Below, in pieces: positions 18,997 to 55,140 of a DNA stretch of 64,000 bases (position 1 is the stretch's first letter; each line of letters starts with the position of its first letter). Origin of the DNA: a phage; sequence record PZ445511.1; one strand, written 5' to 3'. The translations under genes and the position numbers were made by a program. A model generated the notes under the pieces. That model was not told the DNA's origin and searched no databases. It was given only the letters and a program-made list of their open reading frames with translations.

Positions 18997-19188
18997 CAAT
19001 ATTTTACCATAAAGTTCTGTAACATGATCTGAGTCAAAAAATTTTATTTGCCAACCTCTATTAAAAATAGTATAATCACACGCCCGTGTACGCGATATAA
19101 AATGATTATCTAGTACCATACATCTCCCAATAAAAGCAAGTAAATTTTTTATTTAAAAGCAATATCATGGGTTTATTTAAAATTATAC

Positions 19189-19217
19189 TTGCTTTTTGCT
19201 GTAAACCTTGTTATAAT
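19189..19217 (+). promoter_or_regulatory. Sigma70 promoter for phoH operon
   Basis: ttgctt-17bp-tataat with A/T-rich upstream region. Confidence 0.6.
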
Positions 19218-19293
19218 ATATTTGTAAGTTGATAAACAAGATCTCTTTGTTGATCCTCTGTTAGAAGCGAAGTACACTATAGGAGTGTTATTT

Positions 19294-20046
19294 ATGGGAA
19301 AAGCACGTCAAAAAAGAGAGAACCGCAATGGTTCAAGAAAGCGTGGCAACAAGTATGAGAGTAACGTAATTCAAGCAGATTTCTCTGGTGATTACGCCAA
19401 TCCAGTTGCTAAATCCCTAGTTGGTAAAAACCGTGAGCAAAAATCATATATCAATATGATCAAGAACAACACAGTGACTGTGGGTATTGGTGAACCAGGT
19501 ACTGGTAAAACCTTTATTCCGTCCGTTCTTGCAGCTCAGGAACTCGTAGACATTCACTCAGATATTGAGCAAGTGATCCTCGTGCGTCCGAACGAACCTC
19601 TAGGTAAATCTCTTGGTATGCTCCCAGGTGATCTGGCAGAAAAGCTAGAGCCTTGGTTGGAACCAATAGCCGATGGCATGAAATGGGCAATCGGTGATCA
19701 CGCCTACAAAGGATATGTCGAACGTCAGAAAATTAAATTCCTGGCTATCGAACATGCCCGTGGCCGAACTTTCAACAACTCCTATGTAATTGTCGATGAA
19801 GCTCAGAATATCTCCGTTGAAGCAATGATCTGTCTCCTGACTCGTGTAGGACAAGATTGTCGTTTAATTATCTGTGGGGATATAGCGCAGAAAGACATCA
19901 AGGGTGATTCAGGTCTAGCACTTCTTATGGAAGTCTATGAGAAGTATGAAAACTCTCCTTTCTCTATGATCGAACTGATCGACAACGTTCGCTCACCAGA
20001 GTCTAAAGCATTCTACGATATCTTTAAGGATATGGGGAAGGTGTAA
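19294..20046 (+). CDS. phoH: PhoH-like ATPase
   Basis: P-loop GEPGTGKTF and DEAQN motif; start set to ATG 8 nt after aggag (track GTG start overlaps the RBS). Confidence 0.85.
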   Translation: MGKARQKRENRNGSRKRGNKYESNVIQADFSGDYANPVAKSLVGKNREQKSYINMIKNNTVTVGIGEPGTGKTFIPSVLAAQELVDIHSDIEQVILVRPNEPLGKSLGMLPGDLAEKLEPWLEPIADGMKWAIGDHAYKGYVERQKIKFLAIEHARGRTFNNSYVIVDEAQNISVEAMICLLTRVGQDCRLIICGDIAQKDIKGDSGLALLMEVYEKYENSPFSMIELIDNVRSPESKAFYDIFKDMGKV

Positions 20047-20047
20047 T

Positions 20048-20290
20048 ATGGGAAACGTCGTACATCTGCACCGCAAAACTAAGATTCACCGTACTTCACT
20101 GAGTGCTGCTAATATGATTACACGTAAGGAAGGGGAAGAAAGTCCTAAGACTACCCTAGCGTGGAAAATTGTAGCCTCTAATCCAAATCGGCCTTTTAAT
20201 TATAACGAATTGAGTACTTCTATAGACATTCTTATGGCTAAGGAAATACGACAGAAACTAACTGATATGACCGATAAACTTAAATGGTAA
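20048..20290 (+). CDS. Hypothetical protein
   Basis: 80-aa ORF translationally coupled to phoH. Confidence 0.5.
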   Translation: MGNVVHLHRKTKIHRTSLSAANMITRKEGEESPKTTLAWKIVASNPNRPFNYNELSTSIDILMAKEIRQKLTDMTDKLKW

Positions 20291-20297
20291 GACAGAC

Positions 20298-20330
20298 GAG
20301 CCTGGGTATGAAAATATCCGGGCTCTTTTT
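20298..20330 (+). terminator. Rho-independent terminator
   Basis: gagcc...ggctc hairpin followed by TTTTT. Confidence 0.6.
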
Positions 20331-20346
20331 ATCTGTAAAATTGTAC

Positions 20347-20375
20347 TTGCAAAATGACCCAAAACAAAGTAGAAT
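20347..20375 (+). promoter_or_regulatory. Sigma70 promoter for nrdA
   Basis: ttgcaa-17bp-tagaat. Confidence 0.5.
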
Positions 20376-20413
20376 ATTTCCTAAATCCTGATAACTACAA
20401 AAAGGAAAGCCAA

Positions 20414-22744
20414 ATGAGCCATCGCATCGAAAAAGTAATTAAACGTGACGGTACTGTTCAGGACTTTGCTCCTGAAAAACTCAATGATTGGGCTGCATGG
20501 GCATGTAAAGATACTGACGTAAGTTGGTCTGCCGTAGTTATGGCTGCCCTGAAAAATCTACCCAAAGGTGTTGTAGACTCCGATACACTCCAAGATGTGT
20601 TAATTAAAGCCGCTGAAGGTCTTATCAAAGACAACCCAGCATATGATACTGTAGCAAAGGAATTACGTCTTGCGCAGATGCGTAAACGCCTATATGATTC
20701 CTTTGAACCTCCTTCTCTGCGTTTCTTCCACGATCATATGATTCGTGTTGGCGCCTGGGAAGACATGAGTGCATGGATTAGCGATGATCAGTTTGATGCT
20801 CTGAATCAAGTTATTGATCATGATCGCGATCGTTTATTCACCAGTGGTGGACTGAAACAGTTCTTCGACAAGTATTCCCGTCGTAATATTGCAACTGGTG
20901 AAATTTATGAAACCCCGCAGTTTGCCTACATGGGTATGGCAATGGCGATGTTATCTCAACCTAACTGGACAATTCTCGATGCAATCGACCTCTACAACGC
21001 AATGTCACTCCATAAAATCAACGTGCCGACTCCACCTCTCGTGGGTCTTAGGAGCAGCGACCGCGGTTTTGCTTCTTGTTGTCTTGTTGATAGTACTGAT
21101 ACCCTCGATTCAATCGACACAGCCGAGCACATCGTCTTCAAAATGGTCGCAGCCAGAGCGGGAATCGGGTATCATCTTGAAAGCCGATCAATTGCTGATC
21201 CGGTGCGAAATGGGGCATTCCCGCATTCCGGAAAACTGCCATATTATCGACACATTGACCGATCAGTAAAAGCTAACACTCAGCAAACCCGTGGTGGTTC
21301 TGCTACTGTGTCTTACCCATACTTCGATCCTGAAATCATTCAGTTGATGCAGGTTAAGCAGCAACGTGCTACAGACGAGAATAAAATCGATAAGATGGAT
21401 TACTCTCTGAGCTTTAACAACCTTCTGTTAAAACGTTACCTGAAAAATGAAGATATTACGCTAATGTCCTACTTCTACGCACCAGAAGTTCATGAAGCGT
21501 TTTATGGCGAAGATGAGGCTAAGTTTGAAGAAATCTACGTGGCAGCGGAGAAACGTGTGGCATCTCTTACAAAGATCGACCACGAAGGAAAAACAATTCC
21601 AGCAGCTCCTAGAATCTCTGCAAAAGAAATCCTAGATACTTGGTTACGTATCCGTATGGAAACAGGGCGTATGTATGCTCATCACATTGGTGAATCTAAC
21701 CGTCATGGTAACTTCCTTGACCCGATTCGTATGACCAACCTTTGTGTTGAAATTACTCAGCCAACCCGTCCATTCCATCACATTACGGAGCTGTATAAGA
21801 CCCAAGATCAGTTAGACGATATGCGTCCAGAAGATATTGGTGAAGTATCTCTGTGTAACTTAGGTGGTGTTGTACTAGGTCGTATGGAATCTCTGGCTGA
21901 ATGGGAGAAAACTTGCTACATTCTTCTGAAATTCGTTGATACAATCATCGAGATTCAGGATTACCCATTCCCAACTATGGAGTACACGGCTAAGAAACGT
22001 CGTAACGTTGGTATTGGTCTGATGAACGCAGCAGGTGCAATGGCAGCCGAAGGTTTGGCTTACGAAGGTGTTGAAGCCCGTAACTGGATTCACCGTGAAG
22101 CTGAAAAGCTGTCCTACTTCCTACATAAAGCCTCTGTACGTCTGGCTAAAGAACAAGGTGCATGTGACTGGTTTAATCGTACTAAACCATCCAAAGGAAC
22201 TCTGGTAATCGACACGTACAAGAAAACTGTTGATGAACTGGTAACTGTAGGTCTAGAAATGGATTGGGAATCTCTGCGTGCAGATATTCTGAAATATGGT
22301 ATGCGCAACTCTGTTCTGACTGCTCAGATGCCGGGTGAAAGTTCCTCTGTACTGCTAGGTGTTACTAACTCTATCGAGCCGCCTCGTAAGATTGTATCTA
22401 TCAAGGGTAGTGCAGTTAATAAAGTAATTGCAATTGCTCCAGGTGCAACCGATTGGGATACATTAATGAGTTATAAACTGGCTTATGATGTAGATCGTAT
22501 CGAGTGGATCAAATGGGTAGCAACCATGCAGAAATTCTTCAGTCAGTCTATCAGTACGAATATGTACTATGACTACACCAAGTTTGAGAATGAAATCATT
22601 CCTGGTCCAGTAGTAGTTCGTGATTTCATGACTGCTGTTAAGTACGGCTGGAAAACTTGGTACTACGCTAACTTCAACACTGAAAATGGTGGTGGAGCTG
22701 GTGAAGAAGCAGCAGGTTGTGCATCAGGTGGTTGTAACCTATAA
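20414..22744 (+). CDS. nrdA: Ribonucleoside-diphosphate reductase large subunit (class Ia)
   Basis: ATP-cone at N-terminus, catalytic NLCVEI motif, C-terminal Cys pair; start moved to ATG after aaaggaaag RBS (track start lies inside the promoter). Confidence 0.9.
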   Translation: MSHRIEKVIKRDGTVQDFAPEKLNDWAAWACKDTDVSWSAVVMAALKNLPKGVVDSDTLQDVLIKAAEGLIKDNPAYDTVAKELRLAQMRKRLYDSFEPPSLRFFHDHMIRVGAWEDMSAWISDDQFDALNQVIDHDRDRLFTSGGLKQFFDKYSRRNIATGEIYETPQFAYMGMAMAMLSQPNWTILDAIDLYNAMSLHKINVPTPPLVGLRSSDRGFASCCLVDSTDTLDSIDTAEHIVFKMVAARAGIGYHLESRSIADPVRNGAFPHSGKLPYYRHIDRSVKANTQQTRGGSATVSYPYFDPEIIQLMQVKQQRATDENKIDKMDYSLSFNNLLLKRYLKNEDITLMSYFYAPEVHEAFYGEDEAKFEEIYVAAEKRVASLTKIDHEGKTIPAAPRISAKEILDTWLRIRMETGRMYAHHIGESNRHGNFLDPIRMTNLCVEITQPTRPFHHITELYKTQDQLDDMRPEDIGEVSLCNLGGVVLGRMESLAEWEKTCYILLKFVDTIIEIQDYPFPTMEYTAKKRRNVGIGLMNAAGAMAAEGLAYEGVEARNWIHREAEKLSYFLHKASVRLAKEQGACDWFNRTKPSKGTLVIDTYKKTVDELVTVGLEMDWESLRADILKYGMRNSVLTAQMPGESSSVLLGVTNSIEPPRKIVSIKGSAVNKVIAIAPGATDWDTLMSYKLAYDVDRIEWIKWVATMQKFFSQSISTNMYYDYTKFENEIIPGPVVVRDFMTAVKYGWKTWYYANFNTENGGGAGEEAAGCASGGCNL

Positions 22745-26829: not shown

Positions 26830-27342
26830 ATGCTAACACAAGAAATTCTCAAGCAATTGCTAGATTATGATCCACTATCCGGTATTTTTACATGGAAAAC
26901 TAGAGATCCCGATAAGGGAGGATTTAATAAGCAATTTGCAGGTAAAGTAGCTGGAACCAAAAAATCTGGATATATCAGAATACAGATTAACGGAAAACCA
27001 TACGATGCCCATAGACTAGCCTTCTTATTTATGGAGGGCTATATACCAGAGCTGATAGACCATAAAGACAGAGTGGGAACAAACAACGCTTGGGACAATC
27101 TTAGAAAAGCTACTGATAGTCAAAATGCTGCAAACCAATCCGTCCGATCTACTAATATTTCTGGATATAAAAATGTATCCTGGGATAAGGCTAGAAATAA
27201 ATGGTTAGTTAATATCATGAAGGATGGTAAAACTATATATGGTGGTAGATTCTCTGAATTAGAGGATGCAGTAAATGCTGCCAATACTCTACGTTTGTCT
27301 TTATTTGGTAGCTTTGCTCTTTACGAAGAATTTATAAAATAA
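26830..27342 (+). CDS. HNH homing endonuclease (HNH_3 plus AP2-like DNA-binding domain)
   Basis: 170 aa; AHRLAFLF...DHKDR...NN..NLR motif followed by SGYKNVSW AP2-like region. Confidence 0.75.
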   Translation: MLTQEILKQLLDYDPLSGIFTWKTRDPDKGGFNKQFAGKVAGTKKSGYIRIQINGKPYDAHRLAFLFMEGYIPELIDHKDRVGTNNAWDNLRKATDSQNAANQSVRSTNISGYKNVSWDKARNKWLVNIMKDGKTIYGGRFSELEDAVNAANTLRLSLFGSFALYEEFIK

Positions 27343-27355
27343 ATTAAAAATTCAC

Positions 27356-27384
27356 TTGCTTAAAGCCCTCGAATTTAGTATAAT
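27356..27384 (+). promoter_or_regulatory. Sigma70 promoter
   Basis: ttgctt-17bp-tataat. Confidence 0.55.
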
Positions 27385-31210: not shown

Positions 31211-31268
31211 ACGAAGGGTATCAAGAAAGCCCTAATCGTATTGAGTACGATTGGCCGGAGTAAATAAA

Positions 31269-31718
31269 ATGAAGGCAGCTTTGCTTTTAATAGCTGCCCT
31301 AACCTATAGCTTCAATAGTCATGCTACCTACGACGCTAAACAGATTGATTGCATTGCAAAAAATGTCTATTTTGAGAGCCGAGGTGAGGGCACGAAGGGA
31401 ATGGTTGCAGTTGCACAGGTCACCAAAAACCGTGTTAACTCTGGTACATTCCCGGATTCTTACTGTAAAGTAGTATATCAGTCTAACCAGTTCTCTTGGG
31501 TATCTAAGAGACCAAAAGTTGATAAAACCGATGCGGCTTGGCAAACTGCTAAGAATGTAGCTAGAGTGATATACTACGTTGATTTACCCCATGATCCAAC
31601 ATATGGAGCGTTATACTTCCATAGTGGTAAAGAAAAGCCGTACTGGACGAAAACGTTCAAGAAAACAACTAAAATTCAAGGCCACACGTTCTATAAGCCT
31701 GTGACTAAGAAAATTTAA
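31269..31718 (+). CDS. Secreted SleB-like cell-wall hydrolase
   Basis: Signal peptide MKAALLLIAALTYSFNSHA; conserved SleB/Hydrolase_2-like block NVYFESRGEG...VTKNRV...FP...C...QFSW. Confidence 0.6.
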   Translation: MKAALLLIAALTYSFNSHATYDAKQIDCIAKNVYFESRGEGTKGMVAVAQVTKNRVNSGTFPDSYCKVVYQSNQFSWVSKRPKVDKTDAAWQTAKNVARVIYYVDLPHDPTYGALYFHSGKEKPYWTKTFKKTTKIQGHTFYKPVTKKI

Positions 31719-32444: not shown

Positions 32445-32927
32445 ATGAAAAGGAAAGAATACCCTACTAAAGAAATACTTGAAAAATATTTTGTAGCTGA
32501 TCCTGATAATGGGATACTATATAGGAAAACAAAGAAAGGTTTGAAAGAGTGTTGTGCCAATAATAAGAAATCACATCCAGATGTGGGATTTCAGGGCGAC
32601 ACCTATCAACTGCATGTCTTATTATTTATTATGTACTATGGATATAGGCCTGAAGAAGTAGATCATAAGGATACTAATCCTAGAAATAATAGGAAAAATA
32701 ATCTAAGGGACGCCTCTAGATCGCAAAATAATGCGAATAGAAACCAACAATGCAATAATACTTCTGGGTACAAAGGAGTAAGTTGGGAAGGCTCTTCCTG
32801 GAGATACCAAGTAAGACATGAAGGAAAAAATTACAGTAAAAGAGGGTTTAAAACTGCGGAAGAGGCTTTCGAGGCCTCTAAGATATTAAGAGAATCCTTA
32901 CATAAAGAATTTACTAACTTTGGTTAG
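32445..32927 (+). CDS. HNH homing endonuclease (HNH_3 plus AP2-like domain)
   Basis: 160 aa; VDHKDTNPRNN...NLR and SGYKGVSW motifs; paralog of 26830 and 37805 genes. Confidence 0.7.
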   Translation: MKRKEYPTKEILEKYFVADPDNGILYRKTKKGLKECCANNKKSHPDVGFQGDTYQLHVLLFIMYYGYRPEEVDHKDTNPRNNRKNNLRDASRSQNNANRNQQCNNTSGYKGVSWEGSSWRYQVRHEGKNYSKRGFKTAEEAFEASKILRESLHKEFTNFG

Positions 32928-32965
32928 TAATAGTGGGGTGCCGAAACCACTTATGTAACAACACT

Positions 32966-33037
32966 GCCGTCCTAGTATAATAGGTATTATTAGGGCTTCA
33001 CCGCCTGAAGATGTGGGTTCGAGTCCCACGGTCGGAA
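32966..33037 (+). other. tRNA-like element (canonical T-arm, non-canonical anticodon arm, no CCA)
   Basis: gtgggTTCGAGTcccac T-arm plus 6-of-7 acceptor pairing; 5-nt loop where anticodon loop should be. Confidence 0.3.
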
Positions 33038-33499
33038 AGAGTTGGATAACTGGTGCTTCTAATGGCGAAGCAATCGCAGGCAGTTGCGCACTGCCAAAAC
33101 CACGCGGTAGTTGGTTCCAGGCTAACCAACCACTCTTGAAAAGTATATACTACGGTTTTGCTTGTTCAGGAAGCTTCGCATCGAAAATCGGAGGTGCGAT
33201 TTTATCAGACCGCGTGGAGGACGTCTCTCCGTTAAGTGACGAAAAGTGGGACGATTCAGGTAGAGCTGGATATGGAACACCTATACATATGCGGAGTGCG
33301 CACAAAGCATATTGCGGTGGTACTAAACGAAATTAGGAGTCATGACCTGCACAAGTTTAGTATGTCATAACCGATGTACATTCAGTACAAAAACCACTGA
33401 AGCTAAGATAGATAGTCACCTTGACTTAAACTGGAAGATATTGTCTGACGGAAGGGCTGCAGAGCTTAATCTGAGGGGGCTGACCCTACCTACCGTCGG

Positions 33500-34388: not shown

Positions 34389-35333
34389 ATGTTTACTAAA
34401 AACACTAAAGAACTGACTTCTGAGCAAAAAGTAATTCGTACTATTAAACGTTGGGGTGTTGGTGCTGCTATTAGTCTTGGTGCTCTTATTCTGGCTCTCA
34501 ATTCCTATACAGTTGTTCAGGATGGTACTGTTAAGACCCAAACCTTCCTGGGTAAAGTTAGCCCTAATCCTGTATTGCCAGGCTTCCATATTGTTAACCC
34601 ATTTGCTTCTTTTGATACTTTTAGTACGAAAGATATTTCCATGAAACTGGATAAACTTCAGGTTCCTAGCCAGGATAAGTTTAAGTCCACTGTTGACATT
34701 ACCGTTATGTTGCAGTTTGATGGTGCTAAAGCTCCTATGAACCGTGTTAACGCAGGTACTCAGGATCAAGCTCTGAACAAGTACGTTGAAGAGAAGATGC
34801 TGTCTACGATTCGTGAGTTTGGTAAGTCTGTACCAAAAGCACAAGATCTGTTCGACGCTAAGATTCAGGCTCAACTGCAAACCGCTATTCAGCAAGAAGT
34901 AGAAGAGTATGCGCGTCCTTATGGTTACACCGTTAAGCAAGTATTCCTTCAGGATATTACTCTGCCACCGGTAATCATGGAACAGGTACAGAACACCAAA
35001 GTTCGTGAAGAACAAGTTAACGCTGCAAAAGCTGAACTGGCTCGTGTTGAACAAGAAGCACAGCAGAAAGTTAAGCAAGCTGAGGCGGATCGTTCCGCTC
35101 GTGAAAACATGGCAGTAGCTAACGAACGTGACGCAGATGCTAAACTGTACGCAGCTAAGAAAGAAGCTGAAGCTAACGCCGCTCTGCAACGTACCATTAC
35201 TCCTGAAATGATTCGTTGGAAGCAGCTGGAAGTTGAAATGCTTCGTGCTGAAAAATACCAAGGTGGTGTACCACAGACTGTTGTCGGTACTGGCTACGAT
35301 GGTCAAATGATCATGGATATGCGTAACAAGTAA
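34389..35333 (+). CDS. SPFH/band-7 (stomatin/prohibitin-like) membrane protein
   Basis: 314 aa; N-terminal TM helix, SPFH core, long Ala/Gln/Glu coiled-coil C-terminus. Confidence 0.7.
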   Translation: MFTKNTKELTSEQKVIRTIKRWGVGAAISLGALILALNSYTVVQDGTVKTQTFLGKVSPNPVLPGFHIVNPFASFDTFSTKDISMKLDKLQVPSQDKFKSTVDITVMLQFDGAKAPMNRVNAGTQDQALNKYVEEKMLSTIREFGKSVPKAQDLFDAKIQAQLQTAIQQEVEEYARPYGYTVKQVFLQDITLPPVIMEQVQNTKVREEQVNAAKAELARVEQEAQQKVKQAEADRSARENMAVANERDADAKLYAAKKEAEANAALQRTITPEMIRWKQLEVEMLRAEKYQGGVPQTVVGTGYDGQMIMDMRNK

Positions 35334-39725: not shown

Positions 39726-39800
39726 GCACCTATCGTCTAATGGTTAGGACATCAGGATTTCAATCTGAGAATTGAACTCCGATTCTCCGTGGGTGTGCCA
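39726..39800 (+). tRNA. tRNA-Glu-like (anticodon TTC) with degenerate T-arm
   Basis: Good acceptor, D- and anticodon arms (loop atttcaa); T-arm tgaac/tccgatt/ctccg pairs poorly; CCA encoded. Confidence 0.45.
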
Positions 39801-41094: not shown

Positions 41095-41676
41095 ATGCAC
41101 GGAATATCCTTACCCATTCCAGGGTTTGAGGAGTACTTAGTAAGTTTGGATGGGTTAGTATTTAGTATCAAATCAAACAAAATACTAACCCCAATAACCA
41201 GTAATTATGGATACTTATCTATACGTCTCCATAAAAATGGTCAACAGAGAAATACCGGTGTACATAGGATTTTAGCATGTGCATTTAAGAAATTACCAAG
41301 TCTAGACTCTGAACTAGAAGTTGACCATATTAACACAGACATTACTTATTGGGGTCTTAATAACTTACAAGTGCTCACAAAAGAGCAGCATCTAGAAAAG
41401 ACTTTAAAAGATAAAGGATTTAGTAAACTAAATCATGATAATTGTTGTAAGGATTGTGGTAAAGCTATTTCTTTAAAAGCTGAAAAATGTCAGGAGTGCT
41501 CTTCACATAAACCAAAAGATATCTCTATAACTAAAGAAATAATCGAGGTTACAGTAAGAGAGCTAGGCTGGTCAGGTGCAGGGAGAAAGTTAAATTATTC
41601 AGATAATGGGTTGCGTAAAAGATACACTTCTTTAGGAGGCAATCCTAAAGAACTTAAAAAGTTAAAGGTACTATAG
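41095..41676 (+). CDS. HNH homing endonuclease (NUMOD4-like N-terminus, HNH core, C-terminal zinc ribbon)
   Basis: 193 aa; GFEEYLVSLDG, VHRILA...VDHINTD...NL, CCKDCGK...CQEC. Confidence 0.7.
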   Translation: MHGISLPIPGFEEYLVSLDGLVFSIKSNKILTPITSNYGYLSIRLHKNGQQRNTGVHRILACAFKKLPSLDSELEVDHINTDITYWGLNNLQVLTKEQHLEKTLKDKGFSKLNHDNCCKDCGKAISLKAEKCQECSSHKPKDISITKEIIEVTVRELGWSGAGRKLNYSDNGLRKRYTSLGGNPKELKKLKVL

Positions 41677-41741
41677 TCTAACGGTTAGGATACTCCCCTG
41701 TCACGGGAGAGGTAGGGTTTCGATTACCCTTAGTACCGCCA
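41667..41741 (+). tRNA. tRNA-Asp (anticodon GTC)
   Basis: Acceptor ggtacta/tagtacc, anticodon stem ctccc/gggag loop ctgtcac, T-arm agggtTTCGATTaccct, CCA; 5' end overlaps HNH gene stop. Confidence 0.8.
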
Positions 41742-50672: not shown

Positions 50673-51371
50673 ATGAGAATCATTTCAAAGTTCAATGATG
50701 TATACGATTTGCAGAATAGTTTATTTGATCCAGATCGTGTCTGGGAGCGTAAAACTGAAGAGCTGCTAGTAAAAGTAACTGACGATGTAGAAAAGAATAT
50801 CGTTCATAATCGTCAGGTGTTTCGTGAGGGTTCCTTATCCTTCCGTGGTGACTTCGAATACTCAGTAAATCCACTGTTTATTGCAGGTGAAGTTTACTGG
50901 TTACATGAACTGTCCTGCTGGCATCCAGCATTCAGTTTCAAAACGTTCAACATCGATGCTGTGTTCGATAAAATGGAAGAAATGGGATTACATGCCCGTT
51001 CTTACTTACTAGATAAGAATCGTGGTGATGTTCGTGAAACCATGCGAGATATGTTGGTTGAAGCAAAACCTAAAGCAGAACGTATCTTATCTGAACTGCG
51101 CGTACCAATTGCATATGTGAAAGGTATTAAGAAGAACGATAACGATGATGTTCGTAACTTCGTAATTCAGACAAACATTCGTTTCCATCAGTCAGGTATT
51201 CCGTGGCAGGAAATTGAAAGTAACTTATACCGTTTACACCAAGTTCTCGAACAGTATATTTTCGGTGTACTAGGAACTGGTGAGCCTGATATGATTACCG
51301 TATCAGATAAAGACAGGTTAGCAGCACATGGATTTGATACAAAAACTTCTTTCAGGAATATGGCAAGGTAA
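50673..51371 (+). CDS. Hypothetical protein
   Basis: 232-aa ORF with aaaagga RBS. Confidence 0.6.
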   Translation: MRIISKFNDVYDLQNSLFDPDRVWERKTEELLVKVTDDVEKNIVHNRQVFREGSLSFRGDFEYSVNPLFIAGEVYWLHELSCWHPAFSFKTFNIDAVFDKMEEMGLHARSYLLDKNRGDVRETMRDMLVEAKPKAERILSELRVPIAYVKGIKKNDNDDVRNFVIQTNIRFHQSGIPWQEIESNLYRLHQVLEQYIFGVLGTGEPDMITVSDKDRLAAHGFDTKTSFRNMAR

Positions 51372-51777
51372 GTGGTATATCCTGGGAGCTGGTCTTGCGA
51401 TAGGTATCGGATTCGGTGCTTATCACTTAGTAAATAAGGTTGAAACTCTAGCTGGGGATCTTGCAGTTGCGGCTAAAAAGATCTCCACTCTAGAGACTTC
51501 CCTTAATAAGGTGAAAACTGAAAGTGAACTTCGGGAGACTCGAATGAACCAGTATTTCACAATGAATAATATTTCGCAAGCAGATCTAGACAAAAAGATT
51601 AAGCAGTTAGATAAAGCTCTTAATCGTCAAGATGTTATCGCTGCAAAGCCTGGATTGGTAACATTAATTGCTAAAAAGCAGAATAAAGAGTTCGAGGAAA
51701 GATTAGCGTGTTTAACTGGAAACTTGGAGTACTGCTCGCAGCCGCAATCACAATCACAGGCTGTGCAGAAGAAATAA
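51328..51777 (+). CDS. Putative i-spanin-like type II membrane protein
   Basis: 149 aa; N-terminal TM helix then coiled-coil periplasmic region; next gene starts inside its 3' end. Confidence 0.4.
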   Translation: MDLIQKLLSGIWQGKWYILGAGLAIGIGFGAYHLVNKVETLAGDLAVAAKKISTLETSLNKVKTESELRETRMNQYFTMNNISQADLDKKIKQLDKALNRQDVIAAKPGLVTLIAKKQNKEFEERLACLTGNLEYCSQPQSQSQAVQKK

Positions 51778-52061
51778 AACCAGAGCCATCCCATGAGTTA
51801 AAGCAAGCTCATATCGATTGGCCTAAAGGACTTCAGCCTTGTAGTTTTGATTTCAAATTCGAAAAGAAATTAGCTACAAATGGTGAAGATGGCGTAGTAG
51901 TTGTTGTACCTTACAAAGATTGGAATGCAAAAGCAAAATGCGAGGAAGCAGTTTACTCTTACATTTCACGACTGACCGGTATGGTTTGCTTCTATCGTCA
52001 GGATTTACAAGAAAAACGTTGCTTAGTTTATTATCCACCCATTACAAATAGGAAAGATTAA
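51708..52061 (+). CDS. Putative outer-membrane lipoprotein (o-spanin-like)
   Basis: GTG start after gagga; lipoprotein signal with lipobox ITGC; embedded in another frame in upstream gene. Confidence 0.4.
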   Translation: MFNWKLGVLLAAAITITGCAEEIKPEPSHELKQAHIDWPKGLQPCSFDFKFEKKLATNGEDGVVVVVPYKDWNAKAKCEEAVYSYISRLTGMVCFYRQDLQEKRCLVYYPPITNRKD

Positions 52062-52813
52062 TGTCAGTATTAGTCGGTTTACATGGTGAGGCTGGTGCGG
52101 GAAAAGATACTGTTGCAAAATTAATGATTGACTGGTGTAATGACACGTTCCCAACGTGTTTATCCCGTCGTTATAGTTTTGCTAAACCCGTTTACGAACT
52201 TGCATCCGTAATCCTCGGGGTAACTCCAGAGTTTCTGGGAGAGCGCAGGGGAAAAGAGATTGACCAATGGTTTACGATCACACAATCTCAATTGGAGCGA
52301 GCTAGAGACGTATGGTTTAAGTATGGTATCGATAAGTTTGAGGACTTCTCGTACGTTTGGCCGATTTTTGAAGGAAAATACCTTGATCCTCAGCAGTTAA
52401 TTGGGCAAGCTGATGATGCGCTGTATAGCGTGTTTATCTCCCCAAGAAAAATGCTACAGCTTGTAGGTACTGAGTTAGGAAGGCAGCTGGTGCATGAACG
52501 CATTTGGCTCATAATTCTGGAGCAATCCATCGATAAAGACGACCCAGACGTCGCAATCGTTACCGATGTGCGTTTCCCCAATGAGGGAGAGCTAATCATG
52601 GAAACCAATACTCTAGATATGGATTCCATGCTTATTAAGGTTGAATCTGGTATTACTAATAAGTATCGCATCGAGACAGATCATCCGTCTGAAAGCGGTA
52701 TTCCTGAAAAATACATTTCTCATAAATTTGAGAATACCTTCAACGGACTTGATGCACTTCGTACCGATGTGTACCACTTCTGTGACTTAGAGCTAGAACC
52801 ACTAGTTGGATAA
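52061..52813 (+). CDS. Deoxynucleoside monophosphate kinase
   Basis: 250 aa; P-loop GEAGAGKDT and DVRFPNE block similar to phage dNMP kinases. Confidence 0.6.
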   Translation: MSVLVGLHGEAGAGKDTVAKLMIDWCNDTFPTCLSRRYSFAKPVYELASVILGVTPEFLGERRGKEIDQWFTITQSQLERARDVWFKYGIDKFEDFSYVWPIFEGKYLDPQQLIGQADDALYSVFISPRKMLQLVGTELGRQLVHERIWLIILEQSIDKDDPDVAIVTDVRFPNEGELIMETNTLDMDSMLIKVESGITNKYRIETDHPSESGIPEKYISHKFENTFNGLDALRTDVYHFCDLELEPLVG

Positions 52814-52825
52814 TTAAGGATCACT

Positions 52826-53425
52826 ATGACTAATAAGAAAGAAGAAAAGACTAACTTGTTTCACACTGTTCGCCAATCTAACGAATATACCTTTTTCTTT
52901 GATGAAGAATTAGGCTCACCGGATGAGTATCGTGACCTATCCATGATACTTATGCAGGCTGGTGAAGAAGATGAAATTAATCTGATGATTAATGGGCCTG
53001 GTGGTTACGTTGATACTGCTGCACAACTATCTAACCTAATCGCTAACTGTCGTGGAACGGTTATTGGACACCTGCTCGGTCCTAGTGCTTCTGCTTACTG
53101 TACAATCTTCCTGTCTTGCCACGGTTGGGTTGTACATCCACATGCTACGCTTATGGGACATACGTTCTCTGGCGGATTCTGCGAGAAAGGTCAAGAAATC
53201 AAGAAAGCCTATGAATCCTACAACCAGTTTGTAGAAGATATGATGCTAGATATTTACTTTCCGTTCTTCTCTGTCGACGAAATCGAGGATATGGTAAAAG
53301 AGAATAAGAATATCTATCTCAACAGCAAAGAAATCAATAAGCGTATTGAAATTTTGGCGAATTATCGTAAAGAGCAGTGTAGTAAAGCTCAAGCCCCGCA
53401 TCCAGAAGAACATGGAGAAGTGTAA
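52826..53425 (+). CDS. ClpP-like serine protease
   Basis: 199 aa; INGPGGYV motif resembling ClpP INSPGG. Confidence 0.5.
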   Translation: MTNKKEEKTNLFHTVRQSNEYTFFFDEELGSPDEYRDLSMILMQAGEEDEINLMINGPGGYVDTAAQLSNLIANCRGTVIGHLLGPSASAYCTIFLSCHGWVVHPHATLMGHTFSGGFCEKGQEIKKAYESYNQFVEDMMLDIYFPFFSVDEIEDMVKENKNIYLNSKEINKRIEILANYRKEQCSKAQAPHPEEHGEV

Positions 53426-53434
53426 GTAGTTTTA

Positions 53435-53468
53435 AGCCAGAGTTTAACGACTCTGGCTTTTCTTTTGC
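53435..53468 (+). terminator. Rho-independent terminator
   Basis: agccagag...ctctggct hairpin followed by TTTCTTTT. Confidence 0.6.
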
Positions 53469-53528
53469 CTAAAATTCTTCTTGACAACGACAAAAAATTG
53501 TGCTCCAGAAGTGATCTTAAAAAACACA

Positions 53529-53557
53529 TTGTAATTTTACTCTAGAATTAGTATAAT
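53529..53557 (+). promoter_or_regulatory. Putative sigma70 promoter for lysis genes
   Basis: ttgtaa-17bp-tataat; a ttgaca without matching -10 lies 40 nt upstream. Confidence 0.4.
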
Positions 53558-53581
53558 GGTAGTGGTTAGAGGAGGTTACAA

Positions 53582-54238
53582 GTGGAAAAGTTTATACAAC
53601 TATTAACGATACTGCTACAAGAAGCGAAAGATCCAGCTTCGCTACTAAAACGTCTGCTAACTATCTTAGTTGCTGTCATTATTTTCTTGTTTATAAGTAA
53701 CACTAGCGAGGTGATGTCATTTTTAAAGACTTTCTCCACGTCTTCGGTTTTACAGGATGTTCAAACCCAAAGGATAGATAACTTTCCTAATGTAGCACGA
53801 GAAAAGAGTATGGTTCTTTTCTCCCAGACTGGTGCGGATGCCGTTTTTGTAGTAAAGTATAAACCAGATGCTATAAATGATTATTCAAACATTATTGCAT
53901 GGGAAAGCAATGCGCAATTGGATAGGGCTGACTTGGCCGATAAAGCAGTAAACAAGACGTCTGAACTTTATAGACGTCACCTGGAAGGCTTTAACTATGC
54001 TGCGGATTTAAGTGTAAAAGTAAATAAATATACGGGGTCAAATATACCAGCGTTTAAGAACATTACTTTTAATTACGTCTACACTTGTCCATATTTCAAC
54101 CTAAATAATATCTATGCTGGATACATAGGTATTGCATGGAAGGATAAACCCGTAGATACAGCTGATTCGGAACAATTTAATGAGTACTTAGCAAAGCTCT
54201 GTTCCCCACAACGGAGATCATTAGGTAGATCTATATGA
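53582..54238 (+). CDS. Holin
   Basis: 218 aa; N-terminal TM segment, GTG start with aggagg SD, immediately upstream of and overlapping endolysin gene. Confidence 0.6.
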   Translation: MEKFIQLLTILLQEAKDPASLLKRLLTILVAVIIFLFISNTSEVMSFLKTFSTSSVLQDVQTQRIDNFPNVAREKSMVLFSQTGADAVFVVKYKPDAINDYSNIIAWESNAQLDRADLADKAVNKTSELYRRHLEGFNYAADLSVKVNKYTGSNIPAFKNITFNYVYTCPYFNLNNIYAGYIGIAWKDKPVDTADSEQFNEYLAKLCSPQRRSLGRSI

Positions 54239-54648
54239 GTTTTAAATTTGGTAAAAATAGCGAAAAACAATTAGCAACTGTTAAGCCCGAGCTACAGAAG
54301 GTAGCTCGTAGGGCTTTAGAATTATCTCCATATGATTTCACAATCGTACAGGGTATTCGTACAGTAGCACAAAGTGCCCAAAACATTGCTAATGGTACTT
54401 CATTTTTGAAAGACCCTAGCAAAAGTAAGCATGTAACTGGAGACGCTATCGATTTTGCACCATATATTAATGGTAAGATTGATTGGAAAGATCTGGAAGC
54501 ATTTTGGGCTGTTAAGAAGGCTTTTGAACAAGCTGGTAAGGAACTTGGTGTCAAACTTCGTTTTGGTGCCGACTGGAATAGTTCTGGTGATTATCATGAT
54601 GAGATCGATCGTGGTACTTACGACGGTGGTCACGTAGAATTAGTCTGA
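54235..54648 (+). CDS. Endolysin, zinc-dependent L-alanyl-D-glutamate peptidase (M15-like)
   Basis: 137 aa; H...D...H metal-ligand pattern (SKHVTGDAIDF ... DGGHVE). Confidence 0.75.
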   Translation: MSFKFGKNSEKQLATVKPELQKVARRALELSPYDFTIVQGIRTVAQSAQNIANGTSFLKDPSKSKHVTGDAIDFAPYINGKIDWKDLEAFWAVKKAFEQAGKELGVKLRFGADWNSSGDYHDEIDRGTYDGGHVELV

Positions 54649-54658
54649 TAATAAATCA

Positions 54659-54682
54659 AGGCGGGGTAATTCCCGCCTTTTA
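54659..54682 (+). terminator. Rho-independent terminator after endolysin
   Basis: aggcggg...cccgcct hairpin followed by TTT. Confidence 0.55.
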
Positions 54683-54723
54683 AAGCAAAGGGGGCTTTAA
54701 AAACTTAATGATAGGAGAAAGCC

Positions 54724-55140
54724 ATGTTTGCAGAACTATTCACCATGATATTACTAGGAATATGGAAAATAAGCCTAGTAGTTTTCATCTTAATGATAAT
54801 TCTCACTGTTGTCGCACTAGTTACCCAAAATGATACATTAAAGAAAGTCGTTCATGGGCTAGAGTATATAATTATGGGCACATTCGGCGTTTGCAAATGC
54901 AACTGCCAGAGGAATACGAAATATTGTTGGCTTTGGATGGAGTTAGAGAACTGCATCACAGTAGCCTTGGCTGTCTCATTCGGTATGATTCTTATGGCCC
55001 TTACTCTAGCATTGATACCACTAATGTTAGCTGGGGGAGTCACGGCTTATTTCACCCTTTTCTCCCCTATACTTATGTATTCAATATACCCAATAACTAT
55101 GTACTTAGTTAGGAAGAGATTCCCACATCAAGCACACTAA
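54724..55140 (+). CDS. Hypothetical membrane protein
   Basis: 138 aa with several hydrophobic helices. Confidence 0.5.
   Translation: MFAELFTMILLGIWKISLVVFILMIILTVVALVTQNDTLKKVVHGLEYIIMGTFGVCKCNCQRNTKYCWLWMELENCITVALAVSFGMILMALTLALIPLMLAGGVTAYFTLFSPILMYSIYPITMYLVRKRFPHQAH

What the first reader, a model, noticed from the sequence alone, without database searches (positions are those of the whole stretch)
51328..54648. Spanin-like overlapping gene pair separated from holin-endolysin by kinase and protease genes
A type-II membrane coiled-coil protein and an embedded lipoprotein gene (lipobox ITGC, other frame) resemble an i-spanin/o-spanin pair. They lie about 1.5 kb upstream of the holin and endolysin, with dNMP kinase and a ClpP-like protease in between, giving a non-contiguous lysis module.
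Basis: inference. Interest (0 to 1): 0.35.

Follow-up and report, generated by a model that had tools for sequence, protein, structure and literature searches.

The report
Known T5-type spanin gene pair
This is the already described two-protein "spanin" system that T5-like phages use to break the bacterial outer membrane at lysis, sitting in its usual place about 1.5 kb upstream of the holin and endolysin genes; it is real but ordinary.

Summary
The window is a T5-like Salmonella phage of the genus Epseptimavirus; 51000-55000 is 100% identical to phage S147.

- **The gene pair.** 51328-51777 encodes a 149-aa protein with one N-terminal membrane segment and a helical periplasmic part. 51708-52061 encodes a 117-aa lipoprotein precursor (lipobox ITG|C19).
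- **One correction.** The genes share 70 nt, and the lipoprotein gene runs 284 nt past the first gene's stop. The architecture is "overlapped", not "embedded".
- **The neighbours.** dNMP kinase, a Clp-like protease, a terminator-like hairpin and a promoter-like site follow. Then come a T4-type class III holin and an M15 endolysin.

- GenBank and RefSeq records already call these genes i-spanin and o-spanin.
- They fall in PHROGs 739 and 812 together with T4 PseT.3 and PseT.2.
- Kongari et al. 2018 list a "T5 family" of spanins, including EPS7, that overlaps by 70 bp.
- The same gene order occurs in five other Demerecviridae lineages.

The o-spanin keeps the two C-terminal cysteines that are essential in T4 PseT.2. 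Demerecviridae members carry four more periplasmic cysteines, two of them in the i-spanin tail encoded inside the overlap. No functional test exists for this family.

The parts
50673..51371 (+). Upstream 232-aa ORF of unknown function (phrog_4243). It overlaps the i-spanin start by 44 nt and is probably the first gene of the same transcription unit.
   Evidence: T5 has a putative promoter annotated just upstream of its orthologue T5p046.
51328..51777 (+). i-spanin gene (149 aa). It has an N-terminal membrane anchor at about residues 17-35, a helical, heptad-patterned periplasmic domain, and a C-terminal CLTGNLEYC motif (C128, C136).
   Evidence: phrog_739 E=2e-37. Hydropathy. Heptad a/d occupancy 7 of 8 in residues 37-64, reached by 8 of 500 shuffles. 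The profile's only PDB hits are coiled coils. A low-confidence AF2 model is helical over residues 2-129. Aligns with T4 PseT.3.
51708..52061 (+). o-spanin gene (117-aa precursor). It has an SPII signal with lipobox ITG|C19, Ala at +2 (not Asp, so outer-membrane sorting is expected), and periplasmic Cys at 45, 78, 94 and 105.
   Evidence: phrog_812 E=7e-30. Lipobox regex. Alignment with T4 PseT.2, where C19, C94 and C105 are invariant. Annotated o-spanin with the same start in phage TrudiRoth.
51708..51777 (+). 70-nt region read in two frames. The i-spanin tail ACLTGNLEYCSQPQSQSQAVQKK* and the o-spanin signal peptide MFNWKLGVLLAAAITITGCAEEI are encoded on the same bases, offset by 2 nt.
   Evidence: The same 70-bp overlap is reported for T5 in PMC6139136.
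52061..52813 (+). Deoxynucleoside monophosphate kinase (dnk, 250 aa). Its ATG overlaps the o-spanin stop (TAATG). It is not a lysis gene.
   Evidence: PF21448 and phrog_139. Orthologue of T5 dnk, T5p042.
52826..53425 (+). Clp-like serine protease homologue (199 aa). It has no signal peptide or membrane segment, and its role is unknown.
   Evidence: PF00574 E=3e-7, phrog_1827 E=3e-88, NCBIfam ClpP-related below cut-off. No hydrophobic segment.
53434..53459 (+). Terminator-like hairpin (11-bp stem followed by TTCTTTTG) 9 nt after the protease stop.
   Evidence: A terminator is annotated at the equivalent place in Klebsiella phage Sugarland.
53529..53557 (+). Sigma-70-like promoter (TTGTAA-17-TATAAT) upstream of the holin, followed by a strong AGAGGAGG ribosome-binding site.
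   Evidence: A putative promoter is annotated at the equivalent place in T5. The number of promoter-like sites in the region is not above chance (15 found against 14.7 expected), so this rests on position and on the T5 annotation.
53582..54238 (+). Class III (T4 gpt-type) holin, 218 aa, with a single membrane segment at about residues 20-38 and a large periplasmic domain.
   Evidence: PF11031 E=8e-111. 28% identity to T4 T, E=2e-22. Hydropathy. PMC12894885 states that T5 hol is a gpt homologue.
54235..54648 (+). Endolysin, 137 aa, M15-family peptidase (T5-type L-alanyl-D-glutamate peptidase). It overlaps the holin stop by 4 nt.
   Evidence: Peptidase_M15_4 and phrog_465 E=5e-54. Annotated as endolysin or L-alanyl-D-glutamate peptidase in related records.
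54658..54679 (.). GC-rich inverted repeat (AAGGCGGGGTAATTCCCGCCTT) 10 nt after the endolysin stop. It is a probable end of the holin-endolysin unit.
   Evidence: The scan scored it on the minus strand; the T-run on the plus strand is short (TTTTAAAG).

Best explanation
51328-52061 encodes the two-component spanin of a T5-like (Epseptimavirus) phage. It belongs to the published T5 spanin family and is a diverged relative of T4 PseT.3/PseT.2.

Shown here from sequence:
- One protein has a single N-terminal membrane anchor and a helical, heptad-patterned periplasmic domain.
- The other is a lipoprotein precursor with Cys19 as the acylated residue and Ala at +2, so outer-membrane sorting is expected.
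- The two genes share 70 nt.

Inferred by homology and from the lambda/T4 model:
- The two proteins bind through their C-terminal periplasmic parts and form a bridge across the periplasm, held within the peptidoglycan mesh.
- When the class III holin (53582-54238) triggers, the M15 endolysin (54235-54648) degrades the wall. The freed complexes then cluster, change conformation and fuse the inner and outer membranes, which completes lysis.
- o-spanin C94 and C105 correspond to T4 PseT.2 C87 and C98, which are both essential and form disulfides. They probably play the same part here.
- The family-specific extra cysteines (o-spanin C45/C78, i-spanin C128/C136) probably add further disulfides.

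The spanin genes are most likely transcribed with the upstream 232-aa ORF, dnk and the Clp-like protease as one unit. The holin-endolysin pair forms a second unit with its own promoter. The 'split' lysis module is therefore the fixed ancestral gene order of Demerecviridae, and the kinase and protease probably play no part in lysis.
For: - Identity: 51000-55000 is 100% identical to Salmonella phage S147 and eleven other listed records.
- Annotation: RefSeq calls the two genes Rz-like spanins, and TrudiRoth calls them i-spanin and o-spanin with the same coordinates as found here.
- Family: phrog_739 and phrog_812 hits match those of T4 PseT.3 and PseT.2.
- BLASTP to the T4 proteins gives E=5e-6 and E=2e-7.
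- The lipobox Cys and the CxYRxxLxExxC motif are invariant across 8 sequences. KPGLV is shared with T4 PseT.3.
- Literature: a T5 spanin family that includes EPS7 and overlaps by 70 bp. T4 PseT.3/PseT.2 complement lambda Rz/Rz1, and both PseT.2 cysteines are essential.
- Topology and heptads. The only PDB hits of the i-spanin profile are coiled coils.
- Gene order i-spanin/o-spanin, dnk, Clp-like, holin, endolysin is kept in T5, Sugarland, DU_PP_V, KKP_3711 and Proteus VTCCBPA139.
- A terminator-like hairpin and a promoter-like site lie between the protease and the holin. They match a terminator annotated in Sugarland and a promoter annotated in T5.
Against: - I found no functional test of any T5-family spanin. 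Function rests on homology of 23-32% identity to T4 and on sequence signatures.
- The charge bias around the membrane segment is weak, so N-in topology is inferred rather than shown.
- The structure models were built from single sequences and have low confidence (pLDDT 55 and 62).
- Promoter-like and terminator-like sites are no more frequent in this region than in shuffled sequence, so the two-operon layout is inferred.
- The i-spanin has two cysteines and the genes overlap. On both points it differs from the T4 archetype.
Confidence: 0.92

Rival explanations
1. The kinase and/or the Clp-like protease belong functionally to an extended lysis module. For example, the protease could set lysis timing by degrading a holin regulator, which would explain why they have stayed between spanins and holin throughout the family.
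For: The order spanins, dnk, Clp-like, holin, endolysin is kept in six lineages whose spanins are only 23-47% identical. The function of the protease is unknown.
Against: dnk is a nucleotide-metabolism enzyme family (PF21448). The protease has no signal peptide or membrane segment. A terminator-like hairpin and a promoter-like site separate it from the holin. Demerecviridae genomes are broadly collinear, so conserved order alone says little. T4 has homologous holin and spanins at unlinked positions with no such neighbours.
Confidence: 0.05
2. The pair is not a spanin. The lipoprotein would be a surface-modifying or superinfection-exclusion lipoprotein (like T5 Llp or Cor), and the membrane protein would be an unrelated early protein that happens to overlap it.
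For: No experiment has been done on this family. T5-like phages do encode other lipoproteins. The genes lie in an early-type gene block rather than next to the endolysin.
Against: Both partners are homologous to the T4 pair that complements lambda Rz/Rz1. The pairing and adjacency of both genes is kept in every lineage examined. The two cysteines essential in T4 PseT.2 are invariant.
Confidence: 0.03

Closest known systems
T5 spanin family of Kongari et al. 2018 (T5 T5p044/T5p043; EPS7, SPC35, DT57C and others)
   Same: The architecture is the same: overlapped, 70 nt shared. The o-spanin is 90% and the i-spanin 84% identical to the T5 proteins. The neighbours are the same: dnk, Clp-like protease, holin, endolysin. 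EPS7, the name-giving phage of this genus, is listed in the family.
   Different: The first ~15 residues of the i-spanin differ from T5. In T5 an HNH endonuclease gene (T5p045) abuts the i-spanin start. Here the 232-aa ORF overlaps the start by 44 nt. Shivani and phiR201 have the pair split by a homing endonuclease gene; this window does not.
T4 PseT.3 / PseT.2 two-component spanin
   Same: They share PHROGs 739 and 812. The shared motifs are KPGLV in the i-spanin and CxYRQxLxExxC at the o-spanin C-terminus, with both cysteines kept. The o-spanin is large and predicted to be structured (strand-helix-strand in a low-confidence model, as described for PseT.2). Both systems work with a gpt-type holin, and in both the spanin genes are not adjacent to the holin.
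   Different: T4 is classed as 'separated' (the T4 record shows a 4-nt junction overlap), whereas here 70 nt are shared. T4 PseT.3 has no cysteine, whereas this i-spanin has C128 and C136 in a C-terminal extension absent from T4. The o-spanin has two further cysteines (C45, C78) absent from T4. Identity is only 23-32%. The endolysin partner differs (M15 peptidase here).
Lambda Rz / Rz1
   Same: The same functional kind: an inner-membrane anchored helical protein plus an outer-membrane lipoprotein, with periplasmic cysteines in both subunits.
   Different: No detectable sequence similarity; there are no Pfam hits for either protein. Rz1 is fully embedded in Rz, short and proline-rich. Here the o-spanin is about 98 aa when mature, has 7 Pro in the 117-aa precursor, and is only partly overlapped. 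The lambda genes sit directly after the endolysin gene.

Membership tests
Two-component spanin (i-spanin + o-spanin) | i-spanin has a single N-terminal transmembrane segment with the bulk of the protein in the periplasm | tested here: met
   One hydrophobic segment at residues 17-35 and none elsewhere. Orientation is inferred from K6/K15 and from homology, not shown.
Two-component spanin (i-spanin + o-spanin) | i-spanin periplasmic domain is predominantly alpha-helical with coiled-coil propensity | tested here: met
   Heptad a/d LIVM occupancy of 0.875 in residues 37-64, reached by 8 of 500 shuffles. The profile hits only coiled-coil PDB chains. The AF2 single-sequence model is helical over 2-79, 84-99 and 108-129, at low confidence.
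Two-component spanin (i-spanin + o-spanin) | o-spanin has a signal peptidase II signal with a lipobox and no Asp at +2 (outer-membrane sorting) | tested here: met
   MFNWKLGVLLAAAITITG|CAEE: lipobox ITGC at residues 16-19, +2 = Ala. Cys19 is invariant in 8 of 8 homologues.
Two-component spanin (i-spanin + o-spanin) | The two genes are adjacent, in an embedded, overlapped or separated arrangement | tested here: met
   Overlapped: 70 nt shared, with the o-spanin running 284 nt beyond the i-spanin stop.
Two-component spanin (i-spanin + o-spanin) | Periplasmic cysteine(s) available for homotypic intermolecular disulfides | tested here: met
   i-spanin C128 and C136; o-spanin C45, C78, C94 and C105. 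All are conserved within Demerecviridae. Disulfide formation itself is not testable here.
Two-component spanin (i-spanin + o-spanin) | Required for outer-membrane disruption; complements lambda Rz/Rz1 | not testable with these tools
   Needs genetics. I found no published test for the T5 family.
T5 spanin family (Kongari 2018) | Sequence membership and a 70-bp overlapped architecture | tested here: met
   90% and 84% identity to T5 T5p043 and T5p044. The 70-nt overlap equals the published value.
T4 PseT.3/PseT.2 family (PHROG 739/812) | Significant sequence similarity of both subunits | tested here: met
   The same PHROGs are hit by both pairs. BLASTP gives E=2e-7 and 5e-6.
T4 PseT.3/PseT.2 family (PHROG 739/812) | Two conserved C-terminal cysteines in the o-spanin (T4 C87/C98, both essential) | tested here: met
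   C94 and C105 align with them and are invariant.
T4 PseT.3/PseT.2 family (PHROG 739/812) | i-spanin without periplasmic cysteines; genes classed as separated | tested here: not met
   The i-spanin has C128 and C136, and the genes share 70 nt. It is therefore a relative of the T4 archetype and does not share its organisation.
Lambda Rz/Rz1 (embedded spanins) | o-spanin gene wholly inside the i-spanin gene; sequence similarity to Rz/Rz1 | tested here: not met
   The o-spanin extends 284 nt past the i-spanin stop. Neither protein has a Pfam hit.
Class III (gpt-type) holin | PF11031 membership, one transmembrane segment, large C-terminal periplasmic domain | tested here: met
   PF11031 E=8e-111 over residues 3-217. 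One hydrophobic segment at residues 20-38. 28% identity to T4 T.

The most novel reading that the evidence does not exclude
The conserved placement of the spanin genes in one early transcription unit with dnk and a cytoplasmic Clp-like protease could reflect functional coupling. The protease might control lysis timing, or spanin or holin levels, in T5-like phages. Separately, the Demerecviridae-specific CxxGNxxxC loop at the i-spanin C-terminus is encoded on the same bases as the o-spanin signal peptide. It could give this T4-type spanin a lambda-like covalent i-spanin dimer, making a hybrid disulfide architecture.
Probability: 0.07. Interest if true: 0.35.

Novelty: already known. Interest (0 to 1): 0.08.

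Why it matters
It matters little beyond correct annotation. The spanin pair of T5-like phages is catalogued in the literature and in PHROGs, and it is named in many GenBank records.

Three practical points follow.
- Many records still label these genes 'hypothetical protein' or omit the o-spanin.
- RefSeq S147 starts the o-spanin at a CTG (51732), which cuts off the signal peptide's n-region. The GTG at 51708 is the better start.
- The family shows how a T4-type holin and spanin set has been combined with a different endolysin, and with extra cysteines, in siphoviruses. No wet-lab test of this family was found.

Tried and rejected
- Pfam and NCBIfam scans of both spanin proteins gave no meaningful family. 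There were only sub-threshold FtsL and HetF coiled-coil noise hits.
- Sequence searches of the PDB with family profiles found no solved homologue. The o-spanin gave only signal-peptide noise, and the i-spanin gave only generic coiled coils.
- Single-sequence AlphaFold2 models of both proteins had low confidence (pLDDT 54.7 and 62.2). I used them for secondary structure only and did not pass them to fold search.
- The alignments I built contain sequences from fetched loci, and the tool's stated input rule turns such jobs away. I therefore did not attempt alignment-based structure prediction.
- I did not spend the large protein-database searches (search for homologous proteins, the search of protein representatives) or the contig scans, because the phage collection, PHROGs and the literature already settled identity.
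- The 2024 paper on the T5 holin/endolysin operon (doi 10.1007/s11274-024-04063-2) is not in the held library, so its transcription data could not be checked.
- Promoter and terminator scans are not enriched over shuffles, so I treated the sites as positional hints only.
- I rejected 'embedded' as the architecture.
- I rejected the idea that non-contiguity is unusual, because T4 has the same trait.


Full report
**What the window is.** A megablast of 51000-55000 against the phage collection found 461 records, 428 of them covering at least 80% of the query. Twelve of the listed records are 100% identical, including Salmonella phage S147 (NC_048012; Demerecviridae, Markadamsvirinae, Epseptimavirus). 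The window is therefore a T5-like phage. It also carries a block of 28 tRNA genes and the replication and nucleotide-metabolism genes typical of this group.

**The observation.** The ORF list and the sequence confirm each element.
- 51328-51777 (ATG, 149 aa) has one hydrophobic segment at about residues 17-35 and a charged, Leu/Lys/Ala/Glu-rich remainder.
- 51708-52061 (GTG, preceded by GAGGA at a 9-nt spacing, 117 aa) begins MFNWKLGVLLAAAITITG|CAEE. That is a positively charged n-region, a hydrophobic core, lipobox ITGC and Ala at +2.
- The two genes share 70 nt, offset by 2 nt, and the second runs 284 nt beyond the stop of the first. In the field's terms this is 'overlapped', not 'embedded'.
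- From the o-spanin stop to the holin start is 1,520 nt. This stretch holds a dNMP kinase (52061-52813; PF21448, phrog_139) and a Clp-like protease (52826-53425; PF00574, phrog_1827).
- The holin (53582-54238) is a T4 gpt-type class III holin: PF11031 at E=8e-111, one membrane segment, and 28% identity to T4 T at E=2e-22.
- The endolysin (54235-54648) is an M15 peptidase.

**What it is.** Both proteins hit PHROGs annotated 'Rz-like spanin': phrog_739 at E=2e-37 and phrog_812 at E=7e-30. T4 PseT.3 and PseT.2 hit the same two PHROGs. Direct BLASTP gives E=5e-6 and E=2e-7.

I aligned six Demerecviridae lineages (this window, T5, Sugarland, DU_PP_V, KKP_3711 and Proteus VTCCBPA139) with two T4-like phages.
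- In the o-spanin, the lipobox Cys and two C-terminal cysteines (C94 and C105 here) are invariant, within a CxYRxxLxExxC motif.
- The i-spanins share a KPGLV-type motif.
- Kongari et al. 2018 (PMC6139136) report that T4 pseT.3/pseT.2 complement a lambda Rz-am Rz1-am lysogen. They also report that PseT.2 C87 and C98, the counterparts of C94 and C105, are both essential.
- The same paper lists a 'T5 family' of i- and o-spanins: T5, EPS7, Stitch, SPC35, AKFV33, FFH1, DT57C, My1, phiR201 and Shivani. It states that the T5 genes overlap by 70 bp, the value found here.

GenBank records identical or nearly identical to the window already name the genes. RefSeq S147 says 'Rz-like spanin' twice. TrudiRoth says i-spanin and o-spanin with the same boundaries I derive. 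Routine Epseptimavirus genome papers mention them too. The finding is correct but already known.

**How it most likely works.** Three things are shown from sequence: the membrane anchor, the lipoprotein signal and the shared coding region. The mechanism below is inferred from homology and from the lambda/T4 model.
- The i-spanin sits in the inner membrane, and its helical periplasmic domain reaches towards the outer membrane. Support for the helical, coiled-coil character comes from heptad occupancy of 7 of 8 in residues 37-64 (reached by 8 of 500 shuffles), from coiled-coil-only PDB hits, and from a helical but low-confidence model.
- The mature o-spanin is acylated at Cys19 and sorted to the outer membrane.
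- The two proteins pair through their C-terminal parts, and the intact murein holds them in place.
- After the holin triggers and the endolysin degrades the wall, the complexes fuse the two membranes.
- A low-confidence model of the o-spanin gives strand-helix-strand-strand. This resembles the beta-alpha-beta description of PseT.2 and places C94 and C105 on adjacent strands.

**Differences from T4.**
- The Demerecviridae i-spanins carry a C-terminal extension with two conserved cysteines (CLTGNLEYC here; C128 and C136). T4 PseT.3 lacks this extension.
- The o-spanins carry two further conserved cysteines (C45 and C78).
- The i-spanin extension is encoded in the overlap. Its Cys128 codon (TGT, 51709-51711) overlaps the o-spanin GTG start (51708-51710).
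- The i-spanin 'TGN' and the o-spanin 'NWK' are encoded on the same bases, and both are conserved in the family. This probably explains why the n-region of a signal peptide is unusually conserved here. That last point is my inference.

**The split layout.**
- The order 232-aa ORF, i-spanin/o-spanin, dnk, Clp-like protease, holin, endolysin recurs in T5, Sugarland and KKP_3711. DU_PP_V and the Proteus phage keep the order from the spanin pair onwards.
- An 11-bp-stem hairpin with a T-run follows the protease stop (53434-53459), and a TTGTAA-17-TATAAT site precedes the holin (53529-53557). A terminator is annotated at this place in Sugarland and a promoter in T5.
- A paper on the 'T5 holin/endolysin operon' is cited, but it could not be read.
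- I conclude that spanins and holin-endolysin lie in separate neighbouring transcription units. This step is inferred, because such motifs are not enriched over shuffles.
- Separation of spanins from holin and endolysin is not exceptional. In T4 the holin t lies near 160 kb and pseT.3/pseT.2 near 135 kb, and Kongari et al. note the same.

**Rivals.**
- A role of the kinase or protease in lysis cannot be excluded, but nothing beyond conserved order supports it (about 5%).
- A non-spanin role for the pair is very unlikely, given that both partners are homologous to a pair with demonstrated function (about 3%).

**Verdict.** Novelty: already known. Interest is low (0.08). The only open point is that this family has, as far as I could find, not been tested experimentally.

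Noticed in passing
window 31251-31718 (+): A second peptidoglycan hydrolase gene lies about 20 kb from the lysis genes. It encodes a 155-aa protein with an N-terminal signal-like segment and a SleB-type Cell Wall Hydrolase domain (PF07486, E=4e-26). S147 annotates it as 'endolysin', and a 2026 Epseptimavirus paper calls it 'another endolysin'. Its role relative to the M15 endolysin is unclear.
   Followed up: partly
window 51708 vs 51732: There is an annotation inconsistency. RefSeq S147 starts the o-spanin at 51732 (a CTG), which removes the MFNWKLGV n-region of the signal peptide. TrudiRoth and the sequence context (GAGGA 9 nt upstream) favour the GTG at 51708. Many related records label one or both spanins 'hypothetical protein' or do not annotate the o-spanin at all.
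   Followed up: yes
window 51328-51372 vs L004 3130-3670 (T5): The first ~15 residues of the i-spanin differ between this phage and T5. In T5 an HNH endonuclease gene (T5p045) is inserted directly upstream of the i-spanin. Here the 232-aa ORF overlaps the i-spanin start by 44 nt. Homing-endonuclease traffic seems to reshape both ends of the spanin locus; compare the GIY-YIG insertion between the spanins in Shivani and phiR201.
   Followed up: partly
window 54724-55140 (+): A 138-aa protein with at least two strongly hydrophobic segments sits immediately downstream of the endolysin. It is conserved (phrog_5944, E=1e-81) and a 417-nt ORF sits at the same position after the endolysin in T5 (T5p038). 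It has no Pfam or NCBIfam hit. A membrane protein next to a T-type holin could be a lysis regulator; I did not examine this.
   Followed up: no
window 34389-35333 (+): A 314-aa SPFH/Band 7 domain protein (PF01145, E=3e-19) with an N-terminal hydrophobic segment. S147 annotates it as 'lipoprotein'.
   Followed up: partly
window 32965-33038 (+): A tRNA-like gene with anticodon TCA, which reads UGA. ARAGORN calls it tRNA-SeC, and it scores only 33 bits in Rfam (gathering score 29). It could be an opal suppressor or a degenerate tRNA.
   Followed up: no
window 39726-39797 (+): Rfam finds a weak tRNA match (35.2 bits) that ARAGORN did not report, just after tRNA-Tyr. It is possibly a degenerate or unusual tRNA. 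The tRNA block spans 32.9-46.8 kb and holds 28 ARAGORN calls.
   Followed up: no
window ~19000-22000: The GC skew changes sign here (negative before about 20 kb, positive after). This coincides with the switch from minus-strand replication genes to plus-strand genes at about 19 kb in the S147 annotation.
   Followed up: no
window 32445-32927 and ~26850-27360, ~41100-41680 (+): Several HNH homing-endonuclease genes are scattered among the tRNA and early genes (HNH_3, E=1e-11 for 32445-32927; the others per the S147 annotation).
   Followed up: no
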